Shown: positions 15,049 to 64,000, counted from the stretch's first letter. The stretch: DNA of 64,000 nucleotides from Desulfobacterales bacterium (GCA_963674755.2 CAXXVS010000002.1:1504001-1568000), one strand, 5' to 3'. Notes: generated from the sequence alone by a model not told the origin. A program made the numbers and translations.

Positions 15049-15187
15049 GGCTGCTTCCAGGTTGAAGAATGCGGATAACGAACCTATCCATGTGGCCTAG
15101 CGACAATGCTTTCTATGCCACACCGGTCCCCTGGTCAAGAACAGGCCCGGGGGAGCCGTATGGTGGCGGCAGGGCGTTTAAGAGGCC

Positions 15188-16147
15188 CTAATGGCTTCCC
15201 TCACCGTTTGAAACCGCAAATGACGGCGTCGTTACCTCCGGCGGCATTTGCGGCCCCCCATCGCCGCAAAACCGGGCCCGCACGGTATAACGTCCCGGCG
15301 GCAGGCCGGACGGCAGTTCCCAGCGGATGAAGGCCATCTGGTCGATATCGTTGAACCGGGGGCAACGGCCGTCCCCGGCGGCGGCCAAGGCCGGCTCGAA
15401 GGCCATCGCCTGGCCGGGCGGACCGGCGGCGTTGCGCCTCTCGAGGAAGAACACCGGCACCACGCCGATGGGAAAGGCCGTCATGCGGATAAACCGCAGG
15501 GTGACGGTCTCTCCGGGTTGGTAGCGGTCAAAATCGGTGACAATGCCGACCAGCTTGTTGTCATCCGAGATCCCGGTGCCCACGCCTGAGGTCTTTTCAT
15601 CCCAGGACCGGGCCGGCCCCACGTCCACGTGCACGGAGCGGCCGTGATAATAGCCTGTGCCGCCAAAGCCGAGGTCCTTTACGAAATCCCACACCTTCGC
15701 GGAGGCCACCCCCGCCAGCATGAAATCGGCCGCCATGCCGTACTGGTGCAGGCTGGCCTTGGCAGCCAGGCCGCCCCGCGCCCTTACCTTGGTGTTGTAT
15801 TCCGGGCTGCGGTAGCCGGAGGTGATGGTCATCAGCGCGCCGGGATTCAAGCGGTCTTCCAGGAAATCCAGGAAGGCGATCAGCCGCAGGGAAATTTGGG
15901 GACGGTCCGGGTCGAAGGGGGCGCCGAAAACCCTATGGATGGCCTTGAGGGCAGCTTCGTCATACTCGCCTTCCGCCGACCGGTAGGTGCCCTCGAAGGA
16001 CGTCCCGTTTTTTTCACTCACCAGCCGTAGCCGCCCGTCGCCGTCATGAAAAAAGCGTGCGGCATCTGTCATGGCCGCCGATCCTGGGATGGCACTCCAA
16101 AAAAAACTGACCGCAAAAAGCGCCGCCGCGATGGATAGGTTTTTCAT
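15188..16147 (-). CDS. YcbK/DUF882 (peptidase M15A-like) exported protein
   Basis: Signal peptide, ITSGYRSPEYN, SLHQYGMAAD, VHVDVG. Confidence 0.88.
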   Translation of the reverse strand: MKNLSIAAALFAVSFFWSAIPGSAAMTDAARFFHDGDGRLRLVSEKNGTSFEGTYRSAEGEYDEAALKAIHRVFGAPFDPDRPQISLRLIAFLDFLEDRLNPGALMTITSGYRSPEYNTKVRARGGLAAKASLHQYGMAADFMLAGVASAKVWDFVKDLGFGGTGYYHGRSVHVDVGPARSWDEKTSGVGTGISDDNKLVGIVTDFDRYQPGETVTLRFIRMTAFPIGVVPVFFLERRNAAGPPGQAMAFEPALAAAGDGRCPRFNDIDQMAFIRWELPSGLPPGRYTVRARFCGDGGPQMPPEVTTPSFAVSNGEGSH

Positions 16148-16380
16148 CGATCATCCTATTGCCAATAGCGTGGTTTCAGCCTCAAATCTTCTAACGAGAC
16201 GCCATGTCATAATTTGGATTTTGGTTCCCTAGCAGGGCGCGGCTCTGCCGCATCCCGCATAGCGGGACGTCCCATCTGATTGATTTTTTCAACGGTGGGT
16301 GCCCGCAGGTAATGATGTGCGATGATCAGGCTAGGTATGGAGCCGTGTCCGATTCAGAAAAGACCTTTTCGGGGCGGACA

Positions 16381-16716
16381 CTACTTGAAGCGCTTGACCG
16401 CTTTCTTCAGCCCCTCGCCAAACGCCTTCCAGGCCGTTTCCGTCCCCTGCCGGACATCTTCCCAGGCATCCTCGGCCCCGTCCTTGAATTCGTCCCAGGC
16501 GTTTTCACCAGCCACTTCCAGATCGATGATGCGCTCTTTCAGGCGCTGGCGCATCCGTCCCAGCTCTTCCCACTCCTTTTCCACCTTTTGGCGGGCCTCG
16601 GCCGAAAGGTGCTGGGTCTTGGTCTCCAGTTTGCCGCGTTCGACATTCCAGCGCTCGTTCAGGTCGTCGAACTGCCGTTTCATGTTTTTCAGGAACTCAT
16701 CTTTGGTCAGCGCCAT
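16381..16716 (-). CDS. Small coiled-coil protein
   Basis: GGAGG RBS; charged helical sequence with AWDEFKDGAEDAWE motif. Confidence 0.75.
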   Translation of the reverse strand: MALTKDEFLKNMKRQFDDLNERWNVERGKLETKTQHLSAEARQKVEKEWEELGRMRQRLKERIIDLEVAGENAWDEFKDGAEDAWEDVRQGTETAWKAFGEGLKKAVKRFK

Positions 16717-53839: not shown

Positions 53840-55788
53840 CAGTGACGATTCCCCGGCCCCATGGGCGTCAACAAAGGCGTGTGGGCATCGTGGACAGCCG
53901 CGTTGAGCCGGATCAGCGTTTTCTCCCCCACCACGCCGTCCACCGGTACGTGGCTGCGTTCCTGGAAACGCATCACCGCCTGTTGCAGCGCTTCATCGAA
54001 ATATCCCTCTTGTCGGTCATTGCCGGATGACGGTTCACGCCCCTCGATGCGTGCCAGACGATCCCGCAGCCAGAGCACGTCAATGCCCCGGCTGCCCTTT
54101 TGCAGCATCAGATTTTCGAGCAGCGGAGGGCGCCAGAGCAGAACAAATTGGCCGTTCCAGGCCGCCCGCACCGCCGGGGCGTCGAAGGTGCGTTCCCGGC
54201 CGCCGATGTTGAGGGTCACCTGTTGGTTCGTCATGGCGCCCACCGTCACGTAGTGCACCTGCCCGCGTTCATCGAACAGGGTCAAGACCGCCGGGCGGTT
54301 GTAGGCCGCCAGGTGCTCGAGGCGGCCCGTCCTGGAAAGGCATCGCAAACCGGCGCCCAAAGCCCGCACACAGGCGGTATGGCCCGCCAGCGCGTCGAAG
54401 TTCAACTGCCAGTACTGAAAAAGCGTCCTGTAGGCGGTTTCGGCATCCGTCTTCAGGCGCCCGCTGCCCAAAAGCGCCGTCAGATCCCCGGGCAGCGCAG
54501 CCGGCCGGTCTTCCCGCGGAACCGCCAGGGCCAGAAGATCCGTCTTGGGGGGCATCGTCTTCTCAGGGTTTTCCGGCACAGCAGCCGTAACCGATGCGGG
54601 CGCCGGCGGCGCCGGTTCGCTCCCGTCAATGAGGGCGAGCGCTTCGGGGCGCGGGTTTTCGGTTGCCGCAAGTTTCCGTTCCTGACGGAGGGCTTCCGCG
54701 GCCGGATCGTTCGTATCCTGGGGGGGGTCCGCTTGCGCCGCGGGCGATCCGGCCGGGGACGGCATCTGCGCCGCGGTCTCCCCTGCCGGTGCGGGCTTTG
54801 CAGCCGCGATCGCCTGCGATGGGGGTTTCTCCGCCAAAGGTTCGGCCGTTTCGGTTTTCGCCGCCAGGGAAGGTTCGCTCGCGATGGGCCACTGGGTATA
54901 GGCCCAGCCCCCGATAAATCCGAGCAGAAGAAGTGCCGGAATCCCCCACACCAGGCCCAACCGTCTCGGCCGGGCCGGCGCCCGGCCCTTGATTTCTTGT
55001 TCGGCCTGTCTCACCAAGGCGGGGGTGATAAGGTCCGCTTGGCGGGCATAGGCGCCCAGCAGGGCCCGGTCGCAGATGATATTGATCAGACGCGGGACCC
55101 CCTGGCTGCCCTTGTAAATCTGCCGCAGGGCCTTTGGGGTGAACAATTTCTTCCGGCAACCGGCGACCGCCAGACGATGGGCGATATAGGTCTCTGTTTC
55201 GGTAGCGGAGAGCGAGGTCAGATGATAGCGGGCCGTGATGCGCTGGTCCAGTTGCCGCAACTCCGGCCGGTCCATGATGGCCTGAAGCTCGGGCTGGCCG
55301 ATCAGGAGAATCTGGAGAAGCTTGTGGCGGGTCGTCTCCAGGTTGGTCAGCAGACGAATCTGTTCCAGCACCTCCGCGCTCAGATTTTGGGCTTCATCGA
55401 TCACCAGAACCGTGCGCTTGCCCTGGCTGTGGCGCTCCAGAAGATGGGCGTTCAAGCGATCGATCAGCGTTTTGATGCTGTCGTTTTCCCGGGGATAGCC
55501 CACGCCCAGCTCGTCGCAGATGGAGGCCACCAGTTCCAGGGCCGACTGCCGCGGGTTCAGGATTAAAGCGACGTCGACTTCTTCAGGGGTGTTCTCCAGC
55601 AGATAACGGCAAAGGGTCGTCTTGCCCGTCCCCACTTCACCCGTCAACTGGACGAACCCGCCCGTATCCCCAACTCCGTACAGGAGGTGGGCAAAGGCTT
55701 CCCTGTGATCGTGACTGAGGAAAAGAAAACCGGGATCCGGCGTTATGGAAAAAGGAGCCTGCGTGAAACCGAAATAATCAATGTACAT
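53839..55788 (-). CDS. gspA: ExeA/GspA AAA ATPase with peptidoglycan-binding domain
   Basis: PFSITPDP.FL, GEVGTGKT, IDEAQNL, GQPEL, AVMRFQ...VDGVVG.KT. Confidence 0.92.
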   Translation of the reverse strand: MYIDYFGFTQAPFSITPDPGFLFLSHDHREAFAHLLYGVGDTGGFVQLTGEVGTGKTTLCRYLLENTPEEVDVALILNPRQSALELVASICDELGVGYPRENDSIKTLIDRLNAHLLERHSQGKRTVLVIDEAQNLSAEVLEQIRLLTNLETTRHKLLQILLIGQPELQAIMDRPELRQLDQRITARYHLTSLSATETETYIAHRLAVAGCRKKLFTPKALRQIYKGSQGVPRLINIICDRALLGAYARQADLITPALVRQAEQEIKGRAPARPRRLGLVWGIPALLLLGFIGGWAYTQWPIASEPSLAAKTETAEPLAEKPPSQAIAAAKPAPAGETAAQMPSPAGSPAAQADPPQDTNDPAAEALRQERKLAATENPRPEALALIDGSEPAPPAPASVTAAVPENPEKTMPPKTDLLALAVPREDRPAALPGDLTALLGSGRLKTDAETAYRTLFQYWQLNFDALAGHTACVRALGAGLRCLSRTGRLEHLAAYNRPAVLTLFDERGQVHYVTVGAMTNQQVTLNIGGRERTFDAPAVRAAWNGQFVLLWRPPLLENLMLQKGSRGIDVLWLRDRLARIEGREPSSGNDRQEGYFDEALQQAVMRFQERSHVPVDGVVGEKTLIRLNAAVHDAHTPLLTPMGPGNRH

Positions 55789-55920
55789 ATGCTGTCCACC
55801 GCGCCCGGGCTGGAAAACGCGTTTTTCCGGGGGCACCCATTTCGGTAATCTGCTGCGTGAAAAAAAAGAGCATGTACAGACGTCACTTTTGAAATAAATA
55901 CAGAAATTTGGGCACGCCTG

Positions 55921-56487
55921 TCAATAGGAGACGGGCGGTTTGCCGGACAGAACCCGTCGAACCCAAGCGGTGAATTTGCAGGGGGTGCGCATGACGAGAA
56001 ACCAGCCCAGCTTGTAGAAGCCGCGCTTGACCGCTTTGATTTCCGGCGCGATCCCGTCGGTGCTGCTGCAAAAGGTCGTCAGGCAGACCTCGGCCCGGGC
56101 GGTGGCCGGCAGGATGCAGGGCCCTTGGCCGTCCGCCAGGAAAACGCAGTCGGCGGCATAGAACGGGATTTCTTCTTCCAGACAGGTGGCCATGCGGTCG
56201 CGGCAGTCACCCGCCACGGTGAGGATGTAAACCAGATCCCAGACCCCGATAATTGCGTCGAGCTGAATATTGCGGCAGCACAGCCCCTGGCAGACATGGA
56301 TGCAGCGCGCCATGGCGGGGCCGGACTTGGCCAGGAGCTCGGCCTCGGCGGATTGGATCGCATCGCAGATTTGGCCCAGACGGACCTTGTCGTCCGGCCC
56401 CAATCGCGCCAGGATACGCTCCGCTTCGGCAAAGTCCGCGCTGATGCCCATGCGCCCCCTTTCGGGCAGTCGTGCTCCCCAATGCAT
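55921..56487 (-). CDS. Cys-rich hypothetical protein (YkgJ-like metal cluster)
   Basis: CIHVCQGLCC, CVFL..GPCIL...R.EVC.TTFC. Confidence 0.65.
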   Translation of the reverse strand: MHWGARLPERGRMGISADFAEAERILARLGPDDKVRLGQICDAIQSAEAELLAKSGPAMARCIHVCQGLCCRNIQLDAIIGVWDLVYILTVAGDCRDRMATCLEEEIPFYAADCVFLADGQGPCILPATARAEVCLTTFCSSTDGIAPEIKAVKRGFYKLGWFLVMRTPCKFTAWVRRVLSGKPPVSY

Positions 56488-56727
56488 CCTTTATGAAGGA
56501 AGGTGACGCAAACCGCAAGGGGCGTGGAAGGGCGGCGTCACATCAAGACCCGCCGGATCGCGCTGCGGCGTCATTCCTCCACACGGTGAACAGGTTGCAT
56601 AGGCCTTAACGCTGTTTTATCTCCTGAACACAGGGGCGTGTTAGCCGGGCACGACCGCACCAACTTTCGGGCGGCACGCCGTTTCGATGAAAAGCACGGC
56701 TTCGCTAGGAAAGGCAATTTTATAAGT

Positions 56728-56897
56728 AGTGTCCGTCCAGAGATGGTAAATTTCGGTTCTGGCCAAAGCCGCAGCGATTTGAAAACCGACGGCGTAGCCG
56801 TATGAGCGATAGTGTTGCGTAGCTGGGCTACGGCGAGGATTTCCACAGCGCAAGAAAGCCGGCCGGGGCTGAAAGATGCCGTTTATGGATAGGCAGT
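56728..56897 (+). mobile_element. MITE-like element, family 1, copy with internal insertion
   Basis: AGTGTCCGTCCAGAGATGGTAAATTTCGGTTC...GGCGTAGCC...GGGCTACGGCGAGGA...AAAGATGCCGTTTATGGATAGGCAGT aligns end to end with copy 1. Confidence 0.75.
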
Positions 56898-56988
56898 GCG
56901 ACTCCTCCTGCCTAGCGGGAGATCTCGGGAAGCCCTTTCGAAGGGGGCTTGAAAAAGGTTTCTGAGGTTCGGCTTTTGAATTTCCCTT

Positions 56989-57167
56989 TGTCCCGCGCTG
57001 AGCATCGGCGCGGCGGACGGATTAAAGCGCGCGGACTGTTTGAGTCCGCCGTAGCCTTGGCGAAGGCGGGCGAGTTTCCGCGTGCTCCGGCCGCCGTGAC
57101 GACGCGCAGGGAGAAGCGGGACACGGGCGTTTTCTTTTGCTTCCGTTTTCTTTCACGTGAAAGAAAA
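56989..57167. repeat. Nested multi-hairpin intergenic element
   Basis: TGTCCCGC/GCGGGACA outer stem, CCGCC-GTAGCCTTGGCGAA-GGCGG inner hairpin, perfect 22-bp palindrome TTTTCTTTCACGTGAAAGAAAA (57146-57167). Confidence 0.6.
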
Positions 57168-57316
57168 TGAAGAAACCAATTGATGTAAAGGCACCCCGGA
57201 TCGGTCGAACCTCTTCGCGTACTCCATCAGAGGTGGAGGGTTTAGAATAAAGAACAAAAAATGTCTCTGCTGACAAGCGTACCGCAACCCCTTAAAAACA
57301 ACGGAGCGTATACCCG

Positions 57317-58147
57317 ATGCAAACCATCAAGAATCAGATTATCCTGGTAACCGGGTCAACAGACGGCCTGGGCAAGCAGGTTGCCCAAGACCTGGCAGCC
57401 CAGGGGGCGACCATCCTCATGCACGGCCGCCACCCGGCCAAAGGAGAGGCCGTGCTGCAGGATGTCCGGCAGTCCACCGGCAACCCTAACCTCACCTACT
57501 ACAACGCCGACTTGGCCTCCCTCGATGCGGTGCGGCAGCTCTGCGAACAGCTACAGGCCGACCAGACGCGGCTGGATGTGCTCATCAACAACGCCGGCCT
57601 GGGGCCGGGTGCACGGCAATCCCGGCGCGAGCAGAGTACTGACGGCCATGAATTGCGGTTTGCCGTCAACTACCTGGCACCCTACCTGTTGACCTATCGC
57701 TTGCTTCCGCTGCTCCGCCGGTCGCCGGCCGCGCGCATCGTCAATGTCGCTTCCATCGGCCAGCAGCCCATTGAATTCGACAATATCATGCTGGAGGATG
57801 GCTACGACGGCCTGCGGGCCTACCGCCAGAGCAAACTGGCCCAGATCATGTTTACCTTCGACCTGGCCGGGGAGCTCGAGGGATCCGGCATTACCGTCAA
57901 TTGCCTGCACCCGGCGACCCTGATGAACACCAAAATGGTGGTTGAAACAGACTACTTCGGGGGCGGCATGAGCACCGTGGCCCAGGGGGCGCAGGCTGTG
58001 GTGTATCTCGCCACCGCCCCCGAACTGGACAATGTCACGGGGCAGTTCTATGACGGCATGCGGTCAGCACGGGCCAATGCGCAGGCCTATGACAGGGAAG
58101 CCCGCCGCCAGCTGCGGGCGCTAAGCCGGCAGCTTACTGGGCTATGA
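57317..58147 (+). CDS. Short-chain dehydrogenase/reductase
   Basis: TGSTDGLG, NNAG, YRQSK, LHPA. Confidence 0.93.
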   Translation: MQTIKNQIILVTGSTDGLGKQVAQDLAAQGATILMHGRHPAKGEAVLQDVRQSTGNPNLTYYNADLASLDAVRQLCEQLQADQTRLDVLINNAGLGPGARQSRREQSTDGHELRFAVNYLAPYLLTYRLLPLLRRSPAARIVNVASIGQQPIEFDNIMLEDGYDGLRAYRQSKLAQIMFTFDLAGELEGSGITVNCLHPATLMNTKMVVETDYFGGGMSTVAQGAQAVVYLATAPELDNVTGQFYDGMRSARANAQAYDREARRQLRALSRQLTGL

Positions 58148-58655
58148 CCGCGCTAAGGTGAGCGGTGTGTCGTTTACGCGATGGTATACAACCACCCGTT
58201 ACCGCATTTGCATAACTGGGATCCTAAAGCCCTATCCCCCTCTCGATCCCGGATAAACCCTATCGCCTGTCTTTGCATTTCCCATGCGCATTTTTCCCGT
58301 AAAAATTGCTCTCAAGTGATTGTAGGTATTGCAAGAGACCGTCGTATACAGTATATGCGAAATAGTTCTTTCCTTTGCTTCAAAAAATAATTGGGAAGGG
58401 GTTCGGTTTTTACCTACCCACAAGGCACCCAGTTCACATTCTTAGCCAATAACCTGCCCCCTCCTTTATCAGTTGTTTTTATTCAACCTTTCCTGTTTTG
58501 CCAAAATCTTGAATTCTTAAGGCTACCCTATAGGTACGCCTTTTCGAAAATAGTAAGTGGGTTTTTAGATCTCTTCTGCGGAGGCGGCGGGCTTCTGTTG
58601 ATGATTCATGTTCGCTAATCGAGTGTGATGAAATCGGATATTTGAAAGGACATAA

Positions 58656-58728
58656 GGATCAGGTCTCAATATTTACCAAACCAAAAGTCTGGTTCCAACT
58701 AATTTGTCAGATGTTGAGACCCGACCCC
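58656..58728. repeat. Junction hairpin repeat, copy A
   Basis: GGATCAGGTCTCAATATTT...AGATGTTGAGACCCGACCCC with inner AACCA/TGGTT stem. Confidence 0.85.
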
Positions 58729-58770
58729 TGATCCTTTTTCTGGACTAGAAGTGTCTCAAAATAATTTTCC

Positions 58771-58801
58771 GCGTAACTATGTCGCTGCGACATAATTACG
58801 C
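58771..58801. repeat. 31-bp near-perfect palindrome
   Basis: GCGTAACTATGTCGC-T-GCGACATAATTACGC (arms match 14/15). Confidence 0.8.
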
Positions 58802-58855
58802 TAATAAGCGGTAAAAGACGCAAATTGAGGAAAAGGTTGTGATCTACATATTTTG

Positions 58856-58883
58856 TTTACTTTAGGTATCACACTGTTATGAT
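58856..58883 (+). promoter_or_regulatory. Candidate sigma70 promoter ahead of the first cassette
   Basis: TTTACT-N16-TATGAT with extended -10 TG; AT-rich context weakens significance. Confidence 0.4.
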
Positions 58884-58985
58884 GTAAAAATATCAATAAA
58901 CGCGAAGTCATGCATCGAGACCCGAAAAGTGTCTCATATTTCAGTTTCCGTCAAAAAGTTGAAAACTATTTAATATTATAGTTCG

Positions 58986-59372
58986 ATGACCAATATGACA
59001 TCTACAAACAACAATATTCTCATCAATGCTGATGACACCGTAAGAGATATAGTGGACCGGATAATGGCAATTTTATCTGAAAATAAAGCCAATTTATCCA
59101 AATTGAAAAATGAAATATGCCTTCTTTTGGAGCACTTGACAACGGAAGAAGGAAGAACCGATCTAAATTGTAAGGCTGTCGATTATTATTTTATGAATAA
59201 TGACCTGTGGGCTGAAAAAGATTTCCCAGATGAATTGCATGATATTTTTGCGGACATCTCTGGGGCTTTGCACGATACAATTTCATCGCCTGATGTGGCA
59301 AAAAATTTTGATTCAACTCCAGAGCAACTGCTGGAAAGACTAAGAAAGGTTCGCATCGAACCAGGGCATTAA
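58986..59372 (+). CDS. Hypothetical cassette protein
   Basis: 128-aa ORF bracketed by GTTCGAT (58981) and ATCGAAC (59355); its stop lies inside the attC. Confidence 0.8.
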   Translation: MTNMTSTNNNILINADDTVRDIVDRIMAILSENKANLSKLKNEICLLLEHLTTEEGRTDLNCKAVDYYFMNNDLWAEKDFPDELHDIFADISGALHDTISSPDVAKNFDSTPEQLLERLRKVRIEPGH

Positions 59373-59416
59373 GGGCGACGGCCAAAAGCCGCCGCGCCTT
59401 ATGCCCGCCGTTAAGC
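59355..59416 (+). other. Integron attC site
   Basis: R'' ATCGAAC, stem GGGCAT(T)AAGG.GCG..CGGC-CAAAA-GCCG..CGCGCCTTATGCCC with an extrahelical base, R' GTTAAGC; 62 bp. Confidence 0.85.
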
Positions 59417-59430
59417 GTAAATTAAAACTT

Positions 59431-59940
59431 ATGGATATCGAACCAGAAATCAAAGAGCTTTCTGAGTTTTTAGACGAATTCAACAAAGAAAGCGACAGGG
59501 GCGCTGTTCTTAATGCTGCAACAGTCCTTGATGAATGGCTGCTAAGCATAATTAAAGAGTTTTTAGTGGATAACCAATCTTCGAAAGAACTGTTAACTGG
59601 ATTCAATGCTCCACTTGGCACTTTTTCTTCAAGAGCAGCTGCAGCACATGCGCTAGGGTTAATCCAAGACAATGAATTTCAAGAAATCACAACAATTAGA
59701 AAAATCAGAAATGAATTTGGTCACAACTAGAGAGGTATTTCATTCAAAACACAAAAAATCTCAGACCTTGCAAACAATTTACCGTGGCTTGGACCTCCTG
59801 AAATAGAGAAGCAATCAAGCCTAAGAGTGCGTTTTGATTTTGTGGTTGCTGTTTTATTAACAGATCTATTGTGGCGTTCTCGAATGATAAAAAACGAAAA
59901 AAGAGAAATGAAGATTTGGCCAAACAGAGCCAGAAAATAG
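59431..59940 (+). pseudogene. MtlR-like / HEPN-fold cassette gene with in-frame TAG
   Basis: ESDRGAVL..LDEWL, APLGTFSSR, IRKIRNEFGH; TAG at 59728-59730, then the same frame stays open for 69 more codons. Confidence 0.8.
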
Positions 59941-59949
59941 CTATGGCTC

Positions 59950-59974
59950 GCTTAACAAAGCCATTAAGACGGAC
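59950..59974 (+). other. Left half of a truncated attC
   Basis: GCTTAAC-AAAGCCATTAAGACGGAC just after the stop; GCTTAAC is the reverse complement of the cassette-start GTTAAGC; no matching right arm seen. Confidence 0.7.
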
Positions 59975-60056
59975 CGCAATCGCGCTCGATGAACGCAAGA
60001 GCAGTAGTCGTGGTGAGAAAACCGTTAACCCAAATTTCAGTGTAGGGATAAGATTG

Positions 60057-60186
60057 GGGTCGCATCTTAATTGTTAACTATTGACATCTGCGTTATATCA
60101 GTTCTCTATACCCTATACCGACCGACGATTCCGAAATAGAATGTGGTAACTTAAACATCGTATAATTAATAATTAAGATGCGACCC
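60057..60186. repeat. Junction hairpin repeat, long variant E
   Basis: GGGTCGCATCTTAATTGTTAACTAT / ATAATTAATAATTAAGATGCGACCC, arms match 23/25, ~80-bp loop. Confidence 0.85.
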
Positions 60187-60217
60187 TCTTTCTCTTCCTT
60201 ATGTATCGAAAAAACAA

Positions 60218-60859
60218 ATGGGTTTATTAATGAATGACGAAATATCAAAAGCTATAGCAAAAGCCGGCGTTGAGGGAGGGATAGAGGCTGCTAAGGGTTT
60301 TCTTAGAAGATTAGCAGGCCCTGCTGTTGATGAATTAGGATTTCTATTGCAGGATCAAGTAAGGTTTTTTAGGCTTAAAAATCAGCTAAAAATATTATCA
60401 AAAGCCCAAAATATGATACTAAAGTCTGGCCTTTCTCCAGGGGCTATCCCACTTAGGACTTTGATCCCGTTACTGGAGGGGGCAGCTCTAGAGAATGATG
60501 AATATCTATCCAGCAAGTGGGCTGCTTTATTGGCCAATGCATCCATCGGTAAAAATGATATTGCAACGCACCCATCATTCCCACACATCCTTTCGCAACT
60601 CTCACCAGATGAGGCTTTGTTTTTGGATAAATTGGAAACATATGGTGGCGAGACTAATTGGAGTATATTCCGTAGAAATTTTGCTGCCGATTTTTCGAAG
60701 TCTATTGAAGAAGTAGATCAATATTTTGGAAACCTATTTCGCTTAGCACTGTGTCGAATATCTAACAAGGAAGCAGGAAAGCCATATAGCTCGTTATCAA
60801 TTGGGCCATTTGGCAAAAAATTCCTAAAAGCGTGCTCTTCTATCGACAATAATGCATAG
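60218..60859 (+). CDS. Abi-alpha / DUF4393-like protein
   Basis: PLLEGAALEND..L..KWAALLANAS, HPSF..ILSQLSPDEA.FL. Confidence 0.75.
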   Translation: MGLLMNDEISKAIAKAGVEGGIEAAKGFLRRLAGPAVDELGFLLQDQVRFFRLKNQLKILSKAQNMILKSGLSPGAIPLRTLIPLLEGAALENDEYLSSKWAALLANASIGKNDIATHPSFPHILSQLSPDEALFLDKLETYGGETNWSIFRRNFAADFSKSIEEVDQYFGNLFRLALCRISNKEAGKPYSSLSIGPFGKKFLKACSSIDNNA

Positions 60860-60942
60860 TCAGTTGTTGGCGCATACAGAAAATATTTCTCGATTCTATA
60901 ATATCTTGTTTGATTAACTATTTTTAAATATACTTAGCTATT

Positions 60943-62094
60943 ATGAATAGGCCAATAACCCGCGAAAACCCTATGTTTCGGACAGGAAGCGATATCAATC
61001 TTAACGCTTGTGTAGGTTATAATGGATTTCCGAACATCCACACCTATCAGTTTGGGTACCATCAAGCTGTAGTCTCATTAATTGCGACCGCAAAAGAGAA
61101 GACCTACGATTCGGATTCATTGATTTACCCAATTTTATTTTGTGCAAGGCATGCGATAGAGCTTTTTCTCAAAAAACAAATTTATCTTTTATCAGATGTT
61201 AAGGCTATTACTTTGGATAGTGATTCTGAGAACCGCCTGCTAACTGCACACAGCTTGTATTCTTTATGGAATAATTTCAAAGACCTCTCAAAAATAGATA
61301 AGAGGTATGACTCCTTTATCGATAAATTGGAGCCTCATATTAAATGTTTTTGTGATGTGGATGATACGGGCCAAACTTTTCGATACCCCTTGGATGTAGA
61401 TGGCAAACGTCATCTAACAGAGTTCGGTTGCATCAATATCGGAATTTTCAGCAAAAAATATGAATCGATGTATAAAATCATCGAAGAAGTCGTTCTTCTG
61501 ACTGAGTATATTAAAGCCGAGTACAAACAGGGCACATTTATTAAAGAATTGTCTAGAGAACAAATTTCTGAAATTGCTCACATGCTTCCGATAAGAAGGA
61601 ATTGGGTTACAGATGACTTTTCAAAAGCGAAAAACGATATTTGTGCTGAATATGGCATAGGCTCAAGAACCTTTTCAAGGACTCTTAACCTGATTCAGAA
61701 GCACCGGGAGTTTGCATCATATATTGGGATGGAACTGCCCTTAAATGAGATTACTTCACACGAATTGAAAATATTTATCAATTTGTTTAATAAACACAGA
61801 AAAAGATTCAGAACTGATGATTATATCGCCATTATAAATGATTTCCCAAACGAGGTATGCGAAAACCTTTCGAACGATAATATTTATGCTATTTCGGCTA
61901 TTTTTGACATATCATTTTTTGATTTATTCAGTGAAGAGTATGATTCTGACATTGAAAGAAATAGAAAGCGTGATGATCCATTTGGTATTGTATTCAATAA
62001 TATATCTGTAAGGCGTGGCATTGTCTTAAAACATATAAAACGTGGGCTTGGTAGATTAGGCCAGATAACTTTACTCAAAGTTTTTGACGAATAA
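60943..62094 (+). CDS. Hypothetical protein, possible HEPN-like N-terminal domain
   Basis: 383-aa ORF; D.LIYPILF..RHAIELFLK, HSL..LW, D..GQTFRYP. Confidence 0.75.
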   Translation: MNRPITRENPMFRTGSDINLNACVGYNGFPNIHTYQFGYHQAVVSLIATAKEKTYDSDSLIYPILFCARHAIELFLKKQIYLLSDVKAITLDSDSENRLLTAHSLYSLWNNFKDLSKIDKRYDSFIDKLEPHIKCFCDVDDTGQTFRYPLDVDGKRHLTEFGCINIGIFSKKYESMYKIIEEVVLLTEYIKAEYKQGTFIKELSREQISEIAHMLPIRRNWVTDDFSKAKNDICAEYGIGSRTFSRTLNLIQKHREFASYIGMELPLNEITSHELKIFINLFNKHRKRFRTDDYIAIINDFPNEVCENLSNDNIYAISAIFDISFFDLFSEEYDSDIERNRKRDDPFGIVFNNISVRRGIVLKHIKRGLGRLGQITLLKVFDE

Positions 62095-62103
62095 GAAGGA
62101 TCA

Positions 62104-62185
62104 CTGGGTCAGATCTCAACATTTTACAGCCCAGTAATAACGGTTCCAGCAAAATAAAGTTGTCAAACGTTGAGATCAGACTCAG
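62104..62185. repeat. Junction hairpin repeat, copy B
   Basis: CTGGGTCAGATCTCAACATTT...TTGTCAAACGTTGAGATCAGACTCAG, starting 10 bp after the preceding stop. Confidence 0.88.
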
Positions 62186-62334
62186 CGGTTTTTTTAATTT
62201 CAGATATTCGGATGAAATTCCTGTCAATCACTAGTTAGAAATAAAATAATGAGCAGAAACCTTACCAGAATATTTAAAAAATTAAATTTTAAACATCGGA
62301 TTCTACTTTCAAAACACAACGATCGTAGACTCCA

Positions 62335-62919
62335 ATGGAAAGTTTTAGAAAAAAAGCTGAATCAATTTTCAATGAAATAATTCAGCAAGCAAAGGATTGT
62401 AGCTTTTGGGAAAATCTTTATATTCAAAAAAGTCCAGAAAAGTGTAAAACCATATTTGAAGGTGAGAAGTATTTAAATTTCAATATGATTGCACTTTCAT
62501 ATGGGAGTCATCCAACAGATATATCCGTCGAGATATACAAATCTGGAAAAAGAGTAAACGAACGTACAATTTCAGAAACCGGGGGTGCATTCTTAATTTC
62601 CCAGATTCCAAACGGTGGCGTCACTTTTTATCTATATTCTTCTAGTTCTGAATTGCATAAAGCAGATGAATATCCAAAACTGATAAGAGTATACAAAAAG
62701 CCATGTGATGTAAAAGAAAGGCAAATTTGGAGATGTGCAATTCGATTACTAAATTTTTCACATGACACCTCTTATGCTTCTTTCTATCCTTACCATAAAT
62801 ATTTGTATGAGCTTGCGAATAAACATAAAAGAGATTTTTTATTTTTATTGATCGGTGCTTTTATGTCTTATTTTATAGCATTTATTTTTGAAAACTTAAC
62901 AAATATTTTTTCTGGATGA
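62335..62919 (+). CDS. Hypothetical cassette protein with C-terminal TM helix (possibly frameshifted from a start at 62249)
   Basis: 194-aa ORF bracketed by GTTAGAA (62234) and TTCTAAC (62926). Confidence 0.75.
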   Translation: MESFRKKAESIFNEIIQQAKDCSFWENLYIQKSPEKCKTIFEGEKYLNFNMIALSYGSHPTDISVEIYKSGKRVNERTISETGGAFLISQIPNGGVTFYLYSSSSELHKADEYPKLIRVYKKPCDVKERQIWRCAIRLLNFSHDTSYASFYPYHKYLYELANKHKRDFLFLLIGAFMSYFIAFIFENLTNIFSG

Positions 62920-62969
62920 AATAATTTCTAACAAGTGCGAAATCGCAGTCTTTTATCGAAAGAGAATGA

Positions 62970-63042
62970 GGGTTGGCTTTTAACATTTTATAAACCAAAA
63001 CTTATGGTTTCAACTAATTTGCTAAATGTTGAAAACTGGCAC
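62970..63042. repeat. Junction hairpin repeat, copy C (degenerate)
   Basis: GGGTTGGCTTTTAACATTTTATAAACCAAAACTTATGGTTTCAACTAATTTGCTAAATGTTGAAAACTGGCAC aligns with copies A, B and D. Confidence 0.8.
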
Positions 63043-63080
63043 AAGATTATTTTCGTAACTTAGTTAGGCGAGAAGAAAAT

Positions 63081-63659
63081 ATGAAAGTAGAAATTATAAT
63101 ACCACTAATTGGTGTACTTCTTGGTTGGTTTCTAAATGAAATCAGTCAGGCAATTAGACAAAGCAGAGAAAATAAACCCTTTTTGGCACAAGCTATTGGT
63201 TCAATTTGTTGCATTTTATTCATACTTGAACGTAAAAGAAACTATTTAAACAGTGCTATCTACGCGGGAAAGCTCAGCGAGCACGGACACGAATTTTTAA
63301 ACTCTATCCTGCAAAACAAAGAAAATGAAATTAGAACCATAAGGGAAAAATCAGTATCAGCTGTTTCAAACCTAGACAAATTTGAACCTTTTATCTCACA
63401 TGAGTTAGACTTTTTCATGTTATATGCCTTAGATCTTGATGAAAAGATACAAAATAAATTACATAATATTGAAACGAACCTTGAAGAAATTCAGCGATTA
63501 GTAAGAGAGTTGAATATTGCTATTAAAAAATTTCATTTTATTATAAAGAAACTGACGTTAAAGCACAGCGTCTCAATGTATTTTAAGTATAGATGTGAAG
63601 CAAGAAAGAATAATAGTGACAAGATAGATTCTTTTGTTGAGGTATTCCAGCAAATTTAA
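63081..63659 (+). CDS. Hypothetical cassette protein, N-terminal TM helix plus helical domain
   Basis: IIPLIGVLLGWFLNE; preceded by the core-like GTTAGGC (63063-63069). Confidence 0.78.
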   Translation: MKVEIIIPLIGVLLGWFLNEISQAIRQSRENKPFLAQAIGSICCILFILERKRNYLNSAIYAGKLSEHGHEFLNSILQNKENEIRTIREKSVSAVSNLDKFEPFISHELDFFMLYALDLDEKIQNKLHNIETNLEEIQRLVRELNIAIKKFHFIIKKLTLKHSVSMYFKYRCEARKNNSDKIDSFVEVFQQI

Positions 63660-63674
63660 AGAATAAGAGCCATT

Positions 63675-63747
63675 GGGTCAGATATCAACATTTTACGAAC
63701 CAGAAATTATGGCTCGAACTAAATTGTCAAATTATTTGATCTAACAC
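63675..63747. repeat. Junction hairpin repeat, copy D
   Basis: GGGTCAGATATCAACATTTTACGAACCAGAAATTATGGCTCGAACTAAATTGTCAAATTATTTGATCTAACAC. Confidence 0.82.
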
Positions 63748-63812
63748 GGATTCTTTTTTGAGATACGAAGCGCATTTCTTTTCTATTTTCCGAACTCGAT
63801 ATGGAGTAACAA

Positions 63813-64000
63813 ATGAAATGTTTCATTATCATGCCAATTACCACTCCTGCTGAGTGGGCACATCATTATGGCAACGATCCTGACCACTTCTCAAACGTCA
63901 TAGAGTATCTTTTCATTCCTGCAATTAAAGCGGCAAATATGGAACCTATACCACCTAGTTCCGAAGCCTCCCAGATAATCCATTCTGATATTATTTCAAA
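63813..64000 (+). CDS. Nucleoside 2-deoxyribosyltransferase-like domain protein (3' end outside window; not in the ORF track)
   Basis: GGAG RBS; MKCFIIMPITTPAEWAHHYGNDPDHFSNVIEYLFIPAIKAANMEPIPPSSEASQIIHSDIIS. Confidence 0.7.
   Translation, partial: MKCFIIMPITTPAEWAHHYGNDPDHFSNVIEYLFIPAIKAANMEPIPPSSEASQIIHSDIIS

What the first reader, a model, noticed from the sequence alone, without database searches (positions are those of the whole stretch)
58656..63747. Gene-cassette array punctuated by a non-attC GGGTC...GACCC hairpin family
Seen: four homologous ~73-82 bp hairpins (58656, 62104, 62970, 63675), all in the same orientation. Their consensus is about GGGTCAGRTCTCAACATTTTACAAACCA-N7/8-TGGTTCCAACTAAWTTGTCAAATGTTGAGAYCYGACCC. 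A longer hairpin with the same GGGTC/GACCC ends lies at 60057-60186. All sit at junctions of co-oriented, unrelated AT-rich genes, two of them 10-16 bp after a stop codon. They lack attC AAC/GTT ends and were not seen in the 58 kb of core DNA. Inference: they are the recombination or cleavage sites of a cassette capture/shuffling system that works like an integron but uses another enzyme. From recollection, not verified here, similar GGGTC..GACCC hairpins flank some Y1/HUH (RAYT, IS200-like) transposase genes, so an ssDNA hairpin-recognising HUH enzyme is a reasonable candidate. No such gene is in the window.
Basis: partly seen in the sequence, partly recalled or inferred. Interest (0 to 1): 0.9.

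Follow-up and report, generated by a model that had tools for sequence, protein, structure and literature searches.

The report
Transposase-end hairpins inside a dead integron
The repeated hairpins are miniature mobile elements made of the two end-repeats of a tyrosine (HUH) transposase gene, and they have settled between the gene cassettes of an integron that has lost its integrase.

Summary
Four homologous, co-oriented hairpins lie at the stated places, a fifth lies 570 bp past the window, and the long hairpin at 60057-60186 belongs to a second family. The gene array is not a new capture system. It is an ordinary integron that has lost intI. It keeps an attI-like site (58740-58983) that ends in the G|TT crossover, one canonical attC (59355-59416) and AT-rich co-oriented cassettes. 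The hairpins are not attC sites by a covariance model built from this genome's own attCs. Their arms are the terminal inverted repeats that flank RAYT-like Y1/HUH transposase genes carrying a DnaA-like C-terminal domain. These genes and their repeats were named TIRYT and TIRtron in 2013. Family 1 arms flank such a gene in a congener. Family 2 arms flank another one. A third family in this genome flanks the genome's own intact gene. The hairpins are therefore REPIN-like TIR dimers. In this genome they are concentrated in degenerate cassette arrays and always point the way the cassettes point. They often sit where an attC should be, and one abuts the last codons of the deleted intI. Why they gather there is unexplained.

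The parts
58654..58736 (+). Family 1 hairpin, copy 1 (TIR dimer). It abuts the remnant of the intI 3' end.
   Evidence: nhmmer E 3.5e-19. Fold z -2.2 on + and -4.2 on -. 29 of 34 aligned positions identical to the upstream end of the G004 TIRtron.
58740..58983 (+). attI-like site. CTGGACTAG (58740-58748) resembles the last codons (LD*) of intI. It holds two AAGTGTCTCA repeats and ends in ATAATATTATAGTT, the G|TT crossover.
   Evidence: 75% identity over 80 nt to the DNA right after the intI fragment at C1:722107-722185 (E 1.9e-5 genome-wide). In the alignment the homology stops in both at ...TATAGTT. A contig of a related organism (X5) matches 57267-58983 at 96% identity and stops there.
58986..59372 (+). 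Cassette ORF, 128 aa, no Pfam family.
59355..59416 (+). Canonical attC site.
   Evidence: R1: 36.1 bits, E 5.7e-6. 91% identical to the attC at C2:2364322-2364377. Contigs of the likely source run break here and depth is about 35-fold higher.
59401..59941 (+). Cassette ORF of about 180 aa, broken by an in-frame TAG at 59728-59730.
   Evidence: read by eye in the same frame
59950..60030 (+). Possible degenerate attC (GCTTAAC...CGTTAACC).
   Evidence: Only moderate scores with position weight matrices made from the attC ends (8.4 left, 8.3 right). Not reported by R1 at E<=10.
60052..60194 (+). Family 2 hairpin (TIR dimer with about 80 nt of interior).
   Evidence: nhmmer E 2e-41. Identical to the ends of the G006 TIRtron at 56 of 64 positions (left) and 25 of 25 (right). 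Fold z -4.5.
60218..60859 (+). Cassette ORF, 213 aa, Abi_alpha (abortive infection).
   Evidence: PF14337, E 3.4e-22
60943..62094 (+). Cassette ORF, 383 aa, no family.
   Evidence: Found only in G000 among 401 genomes of the order at E<=1e-8.
62104..62185 (+). Family 1 hairpin, copy 2 (the best preserved).
   Evidence: nhmmer E 3.8e-19. Fold z -3.4 and -3.6. 29 of 32 positions identical to the upstream end of the G004 TIRtron.
62335..62919 (+). Cassette ORF, 194 aa, no family.
62967..63044 (+). Family 1 hairpin, copy 3 (decayed). It is bracketed by TTCTAAC (62925) and GTTAGGC (63061).
   Evidence: nhmmer E 3.6e-18. Fold z -1.3. Bracketing boxes read by eye; not confirmed by R1 or the weight matrices.
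63081..63659 (+). Cassette ORF, 192 aa, no family.
63673..63749 (+). Family 1 hairpin, copy 4 (right arm decayed).
   Evidence: nhmmer E 1.5e-19. Fold z -1.6 and -0.8.
63813..64000 (+). Start of a 256-aa cassette ORF that runs to C2:1568583 and ends inside family 1 copy 5 (C2:1568567-1568643).
   Evidence: Weak Nuc_deoxyrib_tr match (26.3 bits, below the 28.8 cut-off).

Best explanation
The hairpins are TIR dimers. Each is a short non-autonomous element made of the left and right terminal inverted repeats of a TIRtron, joined by a short loop. A TIRtron is a RAYT-like Y1/HUH tyrosine transposase gene (a TIRYT) flanked by repeats that begin GGGGWSAS. Family 2 also keeps about 80 nt of the TIRtron's untranslated ends. 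These elements are the counterpart of REPINs for this transposase clade.

Shown here:
- There are three hairpin families in this genome. They share the end GGGTC-R-N-R-TCT and differ further in.
- Each family matches the repeats that flank one clade of Y1_Tnp+DnaA_C genes.
- Only family 3 has an intact cognate gene in this genome, and family 3 is the youngest and most numerous.
- The cognate gene of family 1 survives only as a broken remnant. No cognate gene of family 2 was found.

Inferred:
- The transposase binds the folded end on single-stranded DNA, cuts with its tyrosine, and moves or copies the dimer, as IS200/IS605 TnpA and TnpA-REP do.
- The window copies are fossils that nothing in this genome moves any longer.

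The setting is an integron that has lost intI. It keeps an attI-like site, at least 8 AT-rich cassettes and one clear attC. The dimers have accumulated in such degenerate arrays. They sit at cassette junctions, co-oriented with the cassettes and often where the attC should be. Copy 1 sits exactly where intI was deleted. The most likely causes, both inferred, are a preference for easily melted, hairpin-prone DNA together with deletions that start at the element's ends.
For: Family and enzyme match:
- The G000 gene C1:916398-917372 has Y1_Tnp (58 bits) plus Bac_DnaA_C (41 bits) and matches REP_Tyr_transpos with 70.8 bits.
- That gene is flanked by a perfect 27-bp inverted repeat, AAGGGGTCAAGTCTGCCCTTGACGCAT, which equals the family 3 arm over its first 16-17 nt.
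- The G004 paralog (41% identical, 85.6 bits to REP_Tyr_transpos, above the cut-off of 80) is flanked by GGGGTCAGGTCTCAACATTTGACA, the family 1 arm. Window copy 2 is identical to that end at 29 of 32 positions.
- The G006 paralog is flanked by TGGGGTCGCATCTTAATTATTAATTATT, the family 2 arm. The window's family 2 copy matches its ends at 56 of 64 and 25 of 25 positions.
- In G021 the repeat flanking the gene equals that genome's own 10-copy hairpin family.
- Of 20 gene loci checked, 15 have flanking inverted repeats of 12 nt or more, all containing GGTCA or GGGTC.

Age and the state of the cognate gene go together:
- Family 3: 16 full copies, mean identity 0.92, intact gene.
- Family 2: mean identity 0.82, no cognate gene found.
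- Family 1 in the window: mean identity 0.63. Its gene is broken into fragments at C3:149264-149515, 67-78% identical to the G004 protein and next to a family 1 arm.

Not attC, and the array is an integron:
- R1 hits none of the 8 hairpins in the island but finds the attC at 59355-59416.

Distribution:
- 19 of 32 hairpin loci lie in 3-kb windows with GC<=0.45, which make up 4.1% of the genome's windows.
- All 5 island family 1 copies, 6 of 6 family 2 copies and 16 of 16 full family 3 copies are on the + strand, the strand of the cassettes in the arrays mapped.
- The only array with an intact intI has 0 hairpins among 15-16 attCs.

Literature (passages read): TIRtron/TIRYT and the GGGGWSAS motif in PMC3733652; most TIRYTs belong to subclass 2.1, whose members carry Bac_DnaA_C or HTH C-termini, in PMC6006769.
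Against: - No movement was observed. There is no empty-versus-filled site pair: the one candidate (G004 L080 against G000) could not be aligned.
- Copy numbers are low, 5-17 per family, against tens to hundreds for classical REPINs.
- The G000 protein scores below NCBIfam's cut-off for REP-associated tyrosine transposase (70.8 against 80).
- In 5 of 20 gene loci no flanking repeat was found.
- The clustering in cassette arrays is not a property of the superfamily. In relatives, 19 hairpins at 17 loci lie in DNA of normal GC, with attC-like hits near only one locus. The explanation therefore does not account for the clustering seen here.
- Five cassettes in the window have a hairpin and no detectable attC. 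A simple insertion would not remove the attC.
- R1 was trained on one array only, so a miss does not exclude a divergent attC.
Confidence: 0.8

Rival explanations
1. The family 1 hairpins are working, if unusual, attC sites. IntI would recognise the folded hairpin with its inner TCTCAAC/GTTGAGA boxes, and each gene plus hairpin would be a true cassette.
For: - They sit exactly where an attC belongs, 10-50 bp after the stop codon and co-oriented with the genes.
- Five cassettes in a true integron array, with attI present, have no other attC, yet each must have had one when it entered.
- The inner boxes match RYYYAAC/GTTRRRY at 6 of 7 positions each.
- The extra unpaired bases are on the same arm as in attC sites.
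Against: - R1 gives no hit at E<=10.
- The stem next to the boxes is fully paired rather than an unpaired spacer, and the asymmetry is a 10-15 nt bulge, not 2-3 flipped-out bases.
- The same arms flank a transposase gene in G004 and lie singly in core DNA of relatives.
- Families 2 and 3 take the same positions in arrays without any AAC/GTT.
- The array with the intact intI has none.
Confidence: 0.08
2. One reading: the hairpins are the recombination sites of a separate, HUH-driven system that captures and shuffles genes. Any gene between two dimers, or between one left and one right repeat, could then be moved.
For: - Repeats of these families flank cargo instead of a transposase at two places. 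Family 1-type arms flank a GNAT ORF at C3:776215-777238. A family 2 left half followed by 2.7 kb and then a full family 2 copy spans C2:1569681-1572559.
- Synteny with congeners breaks within 0-12 nt of hairpin ends in 3 of 3 alignable loci, with 25 kb and 43 kb of extra DNA and one truncated gene duplicate.
Against: - The array has attI and a canonical attC and matches the genome's other integron remnants.
- A related organism's contig diverges at the attI GTT (58983), not at a hairpin.
- Genes between two dimers are bounded by outward-facing ends.
- The five window copies are too decayed to be in use.
- Hairpins in relatives carry no genes.
Confidence: 0.07
3. They are mainly host-serving RNA or DNA signals, namely intrinsic terminators or mRNA-stabilising hairpins after each cassette, kept by selection. 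Their likeness to transposase ends would be historical.
For: - A run of T follows the extended stem in 4 of 5 copies.
- Copy 2 contains one of the 6 terminator-like sites found by the scan.
- All copies point in the direction of transcription.
Against: - The terminator scan found 6 sites against 4.2 +/- 2.1 expected in shuffles, and only one of them lies at a hairpin.
- Three of 5 copies no longer fold better than shuffles.
- Family 1 copies outside the island and the family 3 copies lack a T run.
- There is no Rfam family.
Confidence: 0.05

Closest known systems
TIRtrons and TIRYTs (Di Nocera et al. 2013, PMC3733652); subclass 2.1 of TnpA-REP-like Y1 proteins (Quentin et al. 2018, PMC6006769)
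   Same: - A RAYT-like Y1/HUH gene with a C-terminal Bac_DnaA_C/HTH domain.
- Flanking terminal inverted repeats that begin GGGGWSAS. Family 1 is GGGGTCAG (8 of 8); families 3 and 2 match 7 of 8.
- The repeats also occur free in the genome as single, dimeric or grouped copies.
   Different: - Three dimer families are matched here one-to-one to three gene clades across genomes, including two families whose gene is broken or missing in this genome.
- The dimers are concentrated in integron cassette arrays, and one abuts a deleted intI. The passages I read do not mention this.
- Quentin et al. state that they found no REP-like repeats near subclass 2.1 genes.
REPIN-RAYT systems (Bertels and Rainey 2011; seen as listing and abstract only)
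   Same: Two inverted copies of a short repeat form a hairpin with a variable loop. The same repeat flanks a single-copy Y1 transposase. Copies persist at orthologous sites between species (G000 and G004).
   Different: The head motif is GGGG rather than GTAG. Copy number is low. The protein is longer and has an extra DNA-binding domain. The arms have only a short inner palindrome (GTCA...TGAC).
Integron attC sites and CALINs (Cury et al. 2016, IntegronFinder; listing only)
   Same: The size (60-130 bp), the hairpin form, the position after each cassette gene and the common orientation. The host array is a cluster of cassettes without an integrase.
   Different: They are not detected by an attC model. 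Their ends are GGGTC/GACCC. There are no flipped-out bases and no unpaired spacer. The arms belong to a transposase gene.
IS200/IS605 elements and their miniature forms (PATEs) (recalled)
   Same: A Y1 HUH enzyme that acts on folded single-stranded DNA, leaves no target duplication and inserts with a strand preference. An IS200 copy in this genome sits in the loop of a family 3 hairpin.
   Different: IS200/IS605 ends are subterminal hairpins on one strand, not terminal inverted repeats.

Membership tests
Integron attC site | Scores with an attC covariance model (paired R and L boxes) | tested here: not met
   R1, built from 15 attCs of this genome's intact integron, hit 0 of 8 hairpins in the island at E<=10 with filters off. 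The true attC at 59355-59416 scored 36.1 bits. Caveat: the model comes from one array, and IntegronFinder's own model was not available.
Integron attC site | RYYYAAC and GTTRRRY boxes at the two ends of the site | tested here: inconclusive
   Family 1 has TCTCAAC/GTTGAGA (6 of 7 each), but 8 nt inside the repeat. Copy 1 has AAT on the left. Families 2 and 3 have none.
Integron attC site | Unpaired central spacer and 2-3 extrahelical bases that set polarity | tested here: not met
   In the DNA folds the stem next to the boxes is paired, with one mismatch, and there is a single 10-15 nt bulge.
Integron (the array itself) | An attI site next to the first cassette, with the crossover at G|TT | tested here: met
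   Window 58740-58983 aligns with the DNA after an intI fragment on C1, and the homology ends at ...TATAGTT in both. A related organism's contig stops at 58983.
Integron (the array itself) | An integron integrase gene beside attI | tested here: not met
   No TIGR02249 match within 700 kb. tblastn of the intact IntI against window 58100-59000 found nothing at E<=10. Only CTGGACTAG resembles its last codons.
TIRtron / TIRYT repeats | The repeat equals the inverted repeats that flank a RAYT-like gene | tested here: met
   Family 1: G004 (L057). Family 2: G006 (L058). Family 3: G000 (L043)..
TIRtron / TIRYT repeats | The repeat begins with GGGGWSAS | tested here: met
   GGGGTCAG in family 1 of relatives and on C3. 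Window copy 2 has TGGGTCAG. Family 3 has GGGGTCAA and family 2 has GGGGTCGC (7 of 8 each). Motif taken from PMC3733652.
TIRtron / TIRYT repeats | The protein has the HUH motif, a catalytic tyrosine and a C-terminal HTH | tested here: met
   Y1_Tnp plus Bac_DnaA_C. NHYHLLV and LVRYIHKNP read in the translation. REP_Tyr_transpos scores of 70.8, 85.6 and 72.8 bits against a cut-off of 80.
TIRtron / TIRYT repeats | The repeats are moved by the protein | not testable with these tools
   Indirect only: copy identity follows the state of the cognate gene.
REPIN-RAYT | GTAG-type head and tens to hundreds of copies | tested here: not met
   The head is GGGG, and there are 5-17 copies per family.
IS200/IS605 miniature elements | Subterminal hairpins at both ends on the same strand, without terminal inverted repeats | tested here: not met
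   Perfect terminal inverted repeats of 15-32 nt.

The most novel reading that the evidence does not exclude
TIR dimers and their HUH transposases act on integrons. They may be drawn to the same folded single-stranded hairpins that IntI uses. They insert at cassette junctions, replace attC sites and delete intI from the element's end. Working integrons would thereby become frozen arrays without an integrase (CALINs). A bolder version is that family 1 dimers, with their inner AAC/GTT boxes, can stand in for attC and so supply new recombination sites to genes. The evidence does not exclude either version: 5 cassettes in the window have a dimer and no attC, copy 1 abuts the last codons of intI, G004 has an intI remnant cut off by a family 2 dimer, and the intact integron has no dimers.
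Probability: 0.15. Interest if true: 0.75.

Novelty: new member of a known kind. Interest (0 to 1): 0.5.

Why it matters
TIRtrons were named in 2013. My full-text search found the term in only three papers (two listed), and no experiment on them turned up in what I read.

This genome and its congeners give a clean natural test set:
- three dimer families, each matched to its own transposase clade;
- one family with a live gene and young copies;
- two families without a working gene and with decaying copies.

That makes the claim that these proteins move these repeats directly testable.

The link to integrons is the less expected part. The dimers sit at cassette junctions, in place of attC sites and at the stump of a deleted intI. 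This suggests one route by which integrons lose their integrase and become fixed arrays, a process whose causes are not settled.

For annotation, such hairpins should not be taken for a new kind of attC site.

Tried and rejected
- **Rfam.** Window 55500-64000 gave only chance likeness to microRNA precursors, far below the gathering scores.
- **RNAalifold.** It found no consensus structure on the attC alignment. I derived the structure by pair counting instead.
- **attC remnants around the hairpins.** Position weight matrices of the attC ends found good pairs only at 59355/59400 and, more weakly, at 59950/60014. None bracketed a family 1 hairpin. The TTCTAAC...GTTAGGC pair around copy 3 was seen by eye only.
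- **Homologues of a cassette gene with another downstream site.** The 383-aa protein was found only in G000 among 401 genomes of the order. BLAST of the island against its own genome found no paralogous cassettes.
- **The AT-rich family 1 subfamily elsewhere.** The genome-contig scan gave 2 chance matches without a hairpin. The metagenome scan gave one copy at a contig end.
- **Family 2 dimers in relatives.** With a strict pattern they were found only in G000 of 61 genomes.
- **Empty against filled site.** The G004 L080 locus could not be aligned with G000.
- **The IS200 idea.** The strong Y1_Tnp hit beside family 3 arms at C2:1977407-1978094 is an IS200 copy inserted into a family 3 loop, not the cognate gene.
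- **Orientation by replication direction.** Rejected. The window island lies in the negative-skew replichore and the C1 and C3 arrays in positive-skew DNA, yet all hairpins follow the cassettes.
- **Sequencing runs.** No RNA holder was listed. Run X3 holds the same sequence in fragments and is not a variant. A single X1 contig joins 60191 back to 60054; this could be a tandem copy, a circle or an assembly loop and cannot be read. Parts without cover in X3-X5 say nothing.
- **Earlier notes of this scan.** Nothing on this locus.


Full report
**1. The observation**

The window changes from about 0.60 GC to 0.32-0.44 GC at about 58150. The low-GC island runs to about C2:1572600 in the whole genome. 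The window is G000:C2:1504001-1568000.

Four homologous stretches lie at 58654-58736, 62104-62185, 62967-63044 and 63673-63749, all on the + strand. A profile made from them finds a fifth copy at C2:1568567-1568643 (E 2.9e-8), a weak relative at C3:1818103, and nothing in the 58 kb of core DNA of the window.

Copies 1 and 2 fold clearly better than shuffled sequence as single-stranded DNA. Copies 3-5 do not. Mean pairwise identity of the five is 0.63.

The long hairpin at 60057-60186 is a member of a second family. That family has three copies in the island (one is a left half only) and three on contig C1. One detail needs changing: eight bases inside the GGGTC/GACCC ends lie TCTCAAC and GTTGAGA, which resemble attC boxes.

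**2. The array is an integron without its integrase**

The genome has one complete integron integrase (TIGR02249, 415 bits) at C2:2339256-2340191. It also has several fragments: C1:181041, C3:1409422, C1:756585 and C1:721999. Behind the complete gene, and co-oriented with it, lie about 15 classical attC sites in AT-rich DNA.

I aligned 15 of these attC sites and derived a structure by pair counting, because RNAalifold gave none. From this I built covariance model R1.

- With filters off, R1 finds one clear attC in the window island, at 59355-59416 (36.1 bits, E 5.7e-6). It hits none of the eight hairpins, even at E<=10.
- That attC is 91% identical to another attC at C2:2364322.
- R1 also marks arrays on C1 (two), C3 (three) and elsewhere on C2, several of them directly behind intI fragments.

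Window 58740-58983 aligns with the DNA that follows the intI fragment on C1 (75% over 80 nt, E 1.9e-5 against the whole genome). Both sequences hold two AAGTGTCTCA repeats. In both the likeness ends at ATAATATTATAGTT, the G|TT crossover of an attI site. A contig from a related organism matches 57267-58983 at 96% identity and stops at that GTT (contigs only, so this is a hint).

The cassette genes are typical of integrons:
- Abi_alpha (213 aa);
- a weak nucleoside deoxyribosyltransferase-like protein;
- otherwise no Pfam family;
- the 383-aa protein has no relative in 400 other genomes of the order;
- one ORF carries an in-frame TAG at 59728.

**3. What the hairpins are**

A scan for GGGTC...GACCC inverted repeats found a third family of about 60-70 bp with 16 full, near-identical copies. 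All three families share the end GGGTC-R-N-R-TCT. That end motif occurs 106 times in the genome against 53 in the reversed-sequence control.

The genome has 13 Y1_Tnp matches. One of them, C1:916398-917372, encodes 325 aa with Y1_Tnp plus Bac_DnaA_C domains. It is flanked by a perfect 27-bp inverted repeat whose first 16-17 bases are the family 3 arm.

The same protein family is found in 48 of 61 related genomes. I looked at the flanks of 20 such genes. Fifteen have inverted repeats of 12-32 nt, all containing GGTCA or GGGTC, and five have none.

- The G004 paralog is flanked by GGGGTCAGGTCTCAACATTTGACA, the family 1 arm.
- The G006 paralog is flanked by TGGGGTCGCATCTTAATTATTAATTATT, the family 2 arm.
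- The G021 gene is flanked by the arm of G021's own ten-copy hairpin family.
- Window copy 2 is identical to the G004 element end at 29 of 32 positions.
- The window's family 2 copy matches the G006 element ends at 56 of 64 and 25 of 25 positions.

The hairpins are therefore the two ends of such elements joined together, with the gene missing.

In G000 the family 1 gene survives only as fragments at C3:149264-149515, 67-78% identical to the G004 protein and next to a family 1 arm. No family 2 gene was found. Copy identity follows this order: family 3 at 0.92, family 2 at 0.82, window family 1 at 0.63.

**4. Comparison with what is known**

Di Nocera et al. 2013 (PMC3733652, passages read) named RAYT-like genes flanked by terminal inverted repeats TIRtrons, and their proteins TIRYTs. 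They gave the repeat motif GGGGWSAS. They noted that the repeats form families of single, dimeric or grouped copies.

Quentin et al. 2018 (PMC6006769, passages read) place most TIRYTs in subclass 2.1, whose members carry Bac_DnaA_C or HTH C-termini. They say they found no REP-like repeats near those genes.

NCBIfam's REP-associated tyrosine transposase model matches the N-terminal halves with 70.8 bits (G000), 85.6 bits (G004) and 72.8 bits (G006), against a cut-off of 80.

The hairpins thus fit the TIRtron repeat family. They work like REPINs but fail the REPIN criteria of a GTAG head and a high copy number.

**5. Where they sit**

In relatives, 19 hairpins at 17 loci lie singly in DNA of normal GC. 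Weak attC-like hits occur near only one of them.

In G000 the picture differs.
- 19 of 32 loci lie in the 4.1% of 3-kb windows with GC<=0.45.
- A map of four arrays shows each gene followed by a canonical attC, by a hairpin, or by both.
- Of eight family 3 copies inside arrays, four have an attC 18-225 nt upstream and four have none.
- All hairpins are on the + strand, as are the cassettes in the four arrays mapped. This holds in replichores of both GC-skew signs, so orientation follows the cassettes and not replication.
- The array behind the intact intI has no hairpins.
- Family 1 copy 1 ends 3 nt before CTGGACTAG, which matches the last codons (LD*) of intI. No other trace of intI remains upstream.
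- In G004 an intI remnant is cut off and followed by a family 2 hairpin.

**6. Element ends as breakpoints**

Two family 1 loci on C3 are shared with G004 and have the same loops. In both, G000 has extra DNA that starts 11 nt after the hairpin, or inside its last 5 nt.
- One insertion is 25.2 kb and includes a cassette array.
- The other is 43 kb, a mosaic of metabolic, defence-like and IS genes.

At the family 3 copy at C3:1436296, likeness to five of five congeners stops 8-12 nt before the hairpin. The left flank there is a truncated duplicate of a gene 10 kb away.

That makes three of three alignable loci, a small number. I read this as rearrangements that start at element ends, as is known for many transposable elements (inference).

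**7. Mechanism and confidence**

Shown:
- the identity of the hairpin arms with TIRtron ends;
- the domain make-up of the protein;
- the integron nature of the array;
- the distribution of the hairpins.

Inferred:
- movement by the TIRYT on single-stranded DNA;
- a preference for easily melted, hairpin-prone DNA;
- deletions starting at element ends as the cause of lost attC sites and the lost intI.

Not explained:
- why five cassettes in a row have a dimer and no attC;
- why the clustering is seen in this genome and not in its relatives.

**8. Literature on the link with integrons**

Three full-text searches listed no paper whose title or abstract opening links REP, RAYT or TIR repeats with integron cassette arrays. 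The term sets were REPIN/RAYT/integron; attC/repetitive extragenic palindromic/cassette; and CALIN/attC/MITE/sedentary chromosomal integron. I opened only one of the listed papers on this point. PMC8266576 mentions integrons only as an analogy for proteins that read folded single strands.

**9. Verdict**

The hairpins are a new set of members of a known but little-studied kind. The proposed new capture system is not supported. The interplay with integrons is a lead worth testing.

Noticed in passing
window 56895-57260: A dispersed repeat of about 350 bp in the non-coding stretch upstream of the SDR gene. It has dozens of copies at 75-90% identity in G000 and in every one of 12 congeners searched. 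No Rfam family covers it.
   Followed up: no
G000 C2:2325898-2340191 (L010): A complete integron in which intI and the cassettes point the same way (the inverted type). It has about 15 classical attC sites in 0.35-GC DNA and no TIR dimers.
   Followed up: partly
G000 C2:1977402-1978110: An IS200-type element (149-aa TnpA, one of 5 copies) is inserted exactly in the loop of a family 3 hairpin.
   Followed up: partly
G000 C3:776215-777238: Family 1-type left and right arms flank about 1 kb that holds a GNAT-like ORF instead of a transposase. The left arm is kept only up to TCTCAAC.
   Followed up: no
L009:9681-12559 (C2:1569681-1572559): A left half of a family 2 element is followed by 2.7 kb of higher-GC DNA (a small ORF plus a PAS/HisKA/receiver hybrid kinase) and then a full family 2 copy. 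The kinase's last codons and its stop lie inside the repeat.
   Followed up: no
G000 C1:626353, C1:1285445, C2:1644554, C2:1885871, C3:604225, C3:764740, C3:1282421: A second paralogous group of long Y1_Tnp proteins (about 340 aa, starting MPRQARIDAPGA). For three of the six whose flanks were checked (C3:604225 was not), the flanks are inverted repeats beginning GGGGAC.
   Followed up: no
G000 C1:917378-917420 and beside family 3 copies (C1:486849, C3:2487458): Short tandem repetitions of the right-end motif (TGACCCCTTACGC; GACCCCAAGAACT) follow the TIRYT gene and some dimers. They may be a trace of repeated end processing.
   Followed up: no
G000 C3:2470826-2471020 and C3:2490690-2491010: A direct repeat of about 200-300 bp, containing a TATAAT-like box, brackets the 20-kb C3 cassette array.
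   Followed up: no
L103:300-1300 (G004:C19): An intI remnant cut at ...GTTCTTAAC, then a family 2 hairpin, then a classical short RAYT gene with its own 35-nt inverted repeats.
   Followed up: no
window 59728-59730: An in-frame TAG splits a cassette ORF of about 180 aa (59401-59941). This suggests a decaying cassette.
   Followed up: no
L009:13057-15110 and 15161-16534: An IS21-type istA/istB pair and a T6SS Tle1-like phospholipase gene lie just beyond the island.
   Followed up: no
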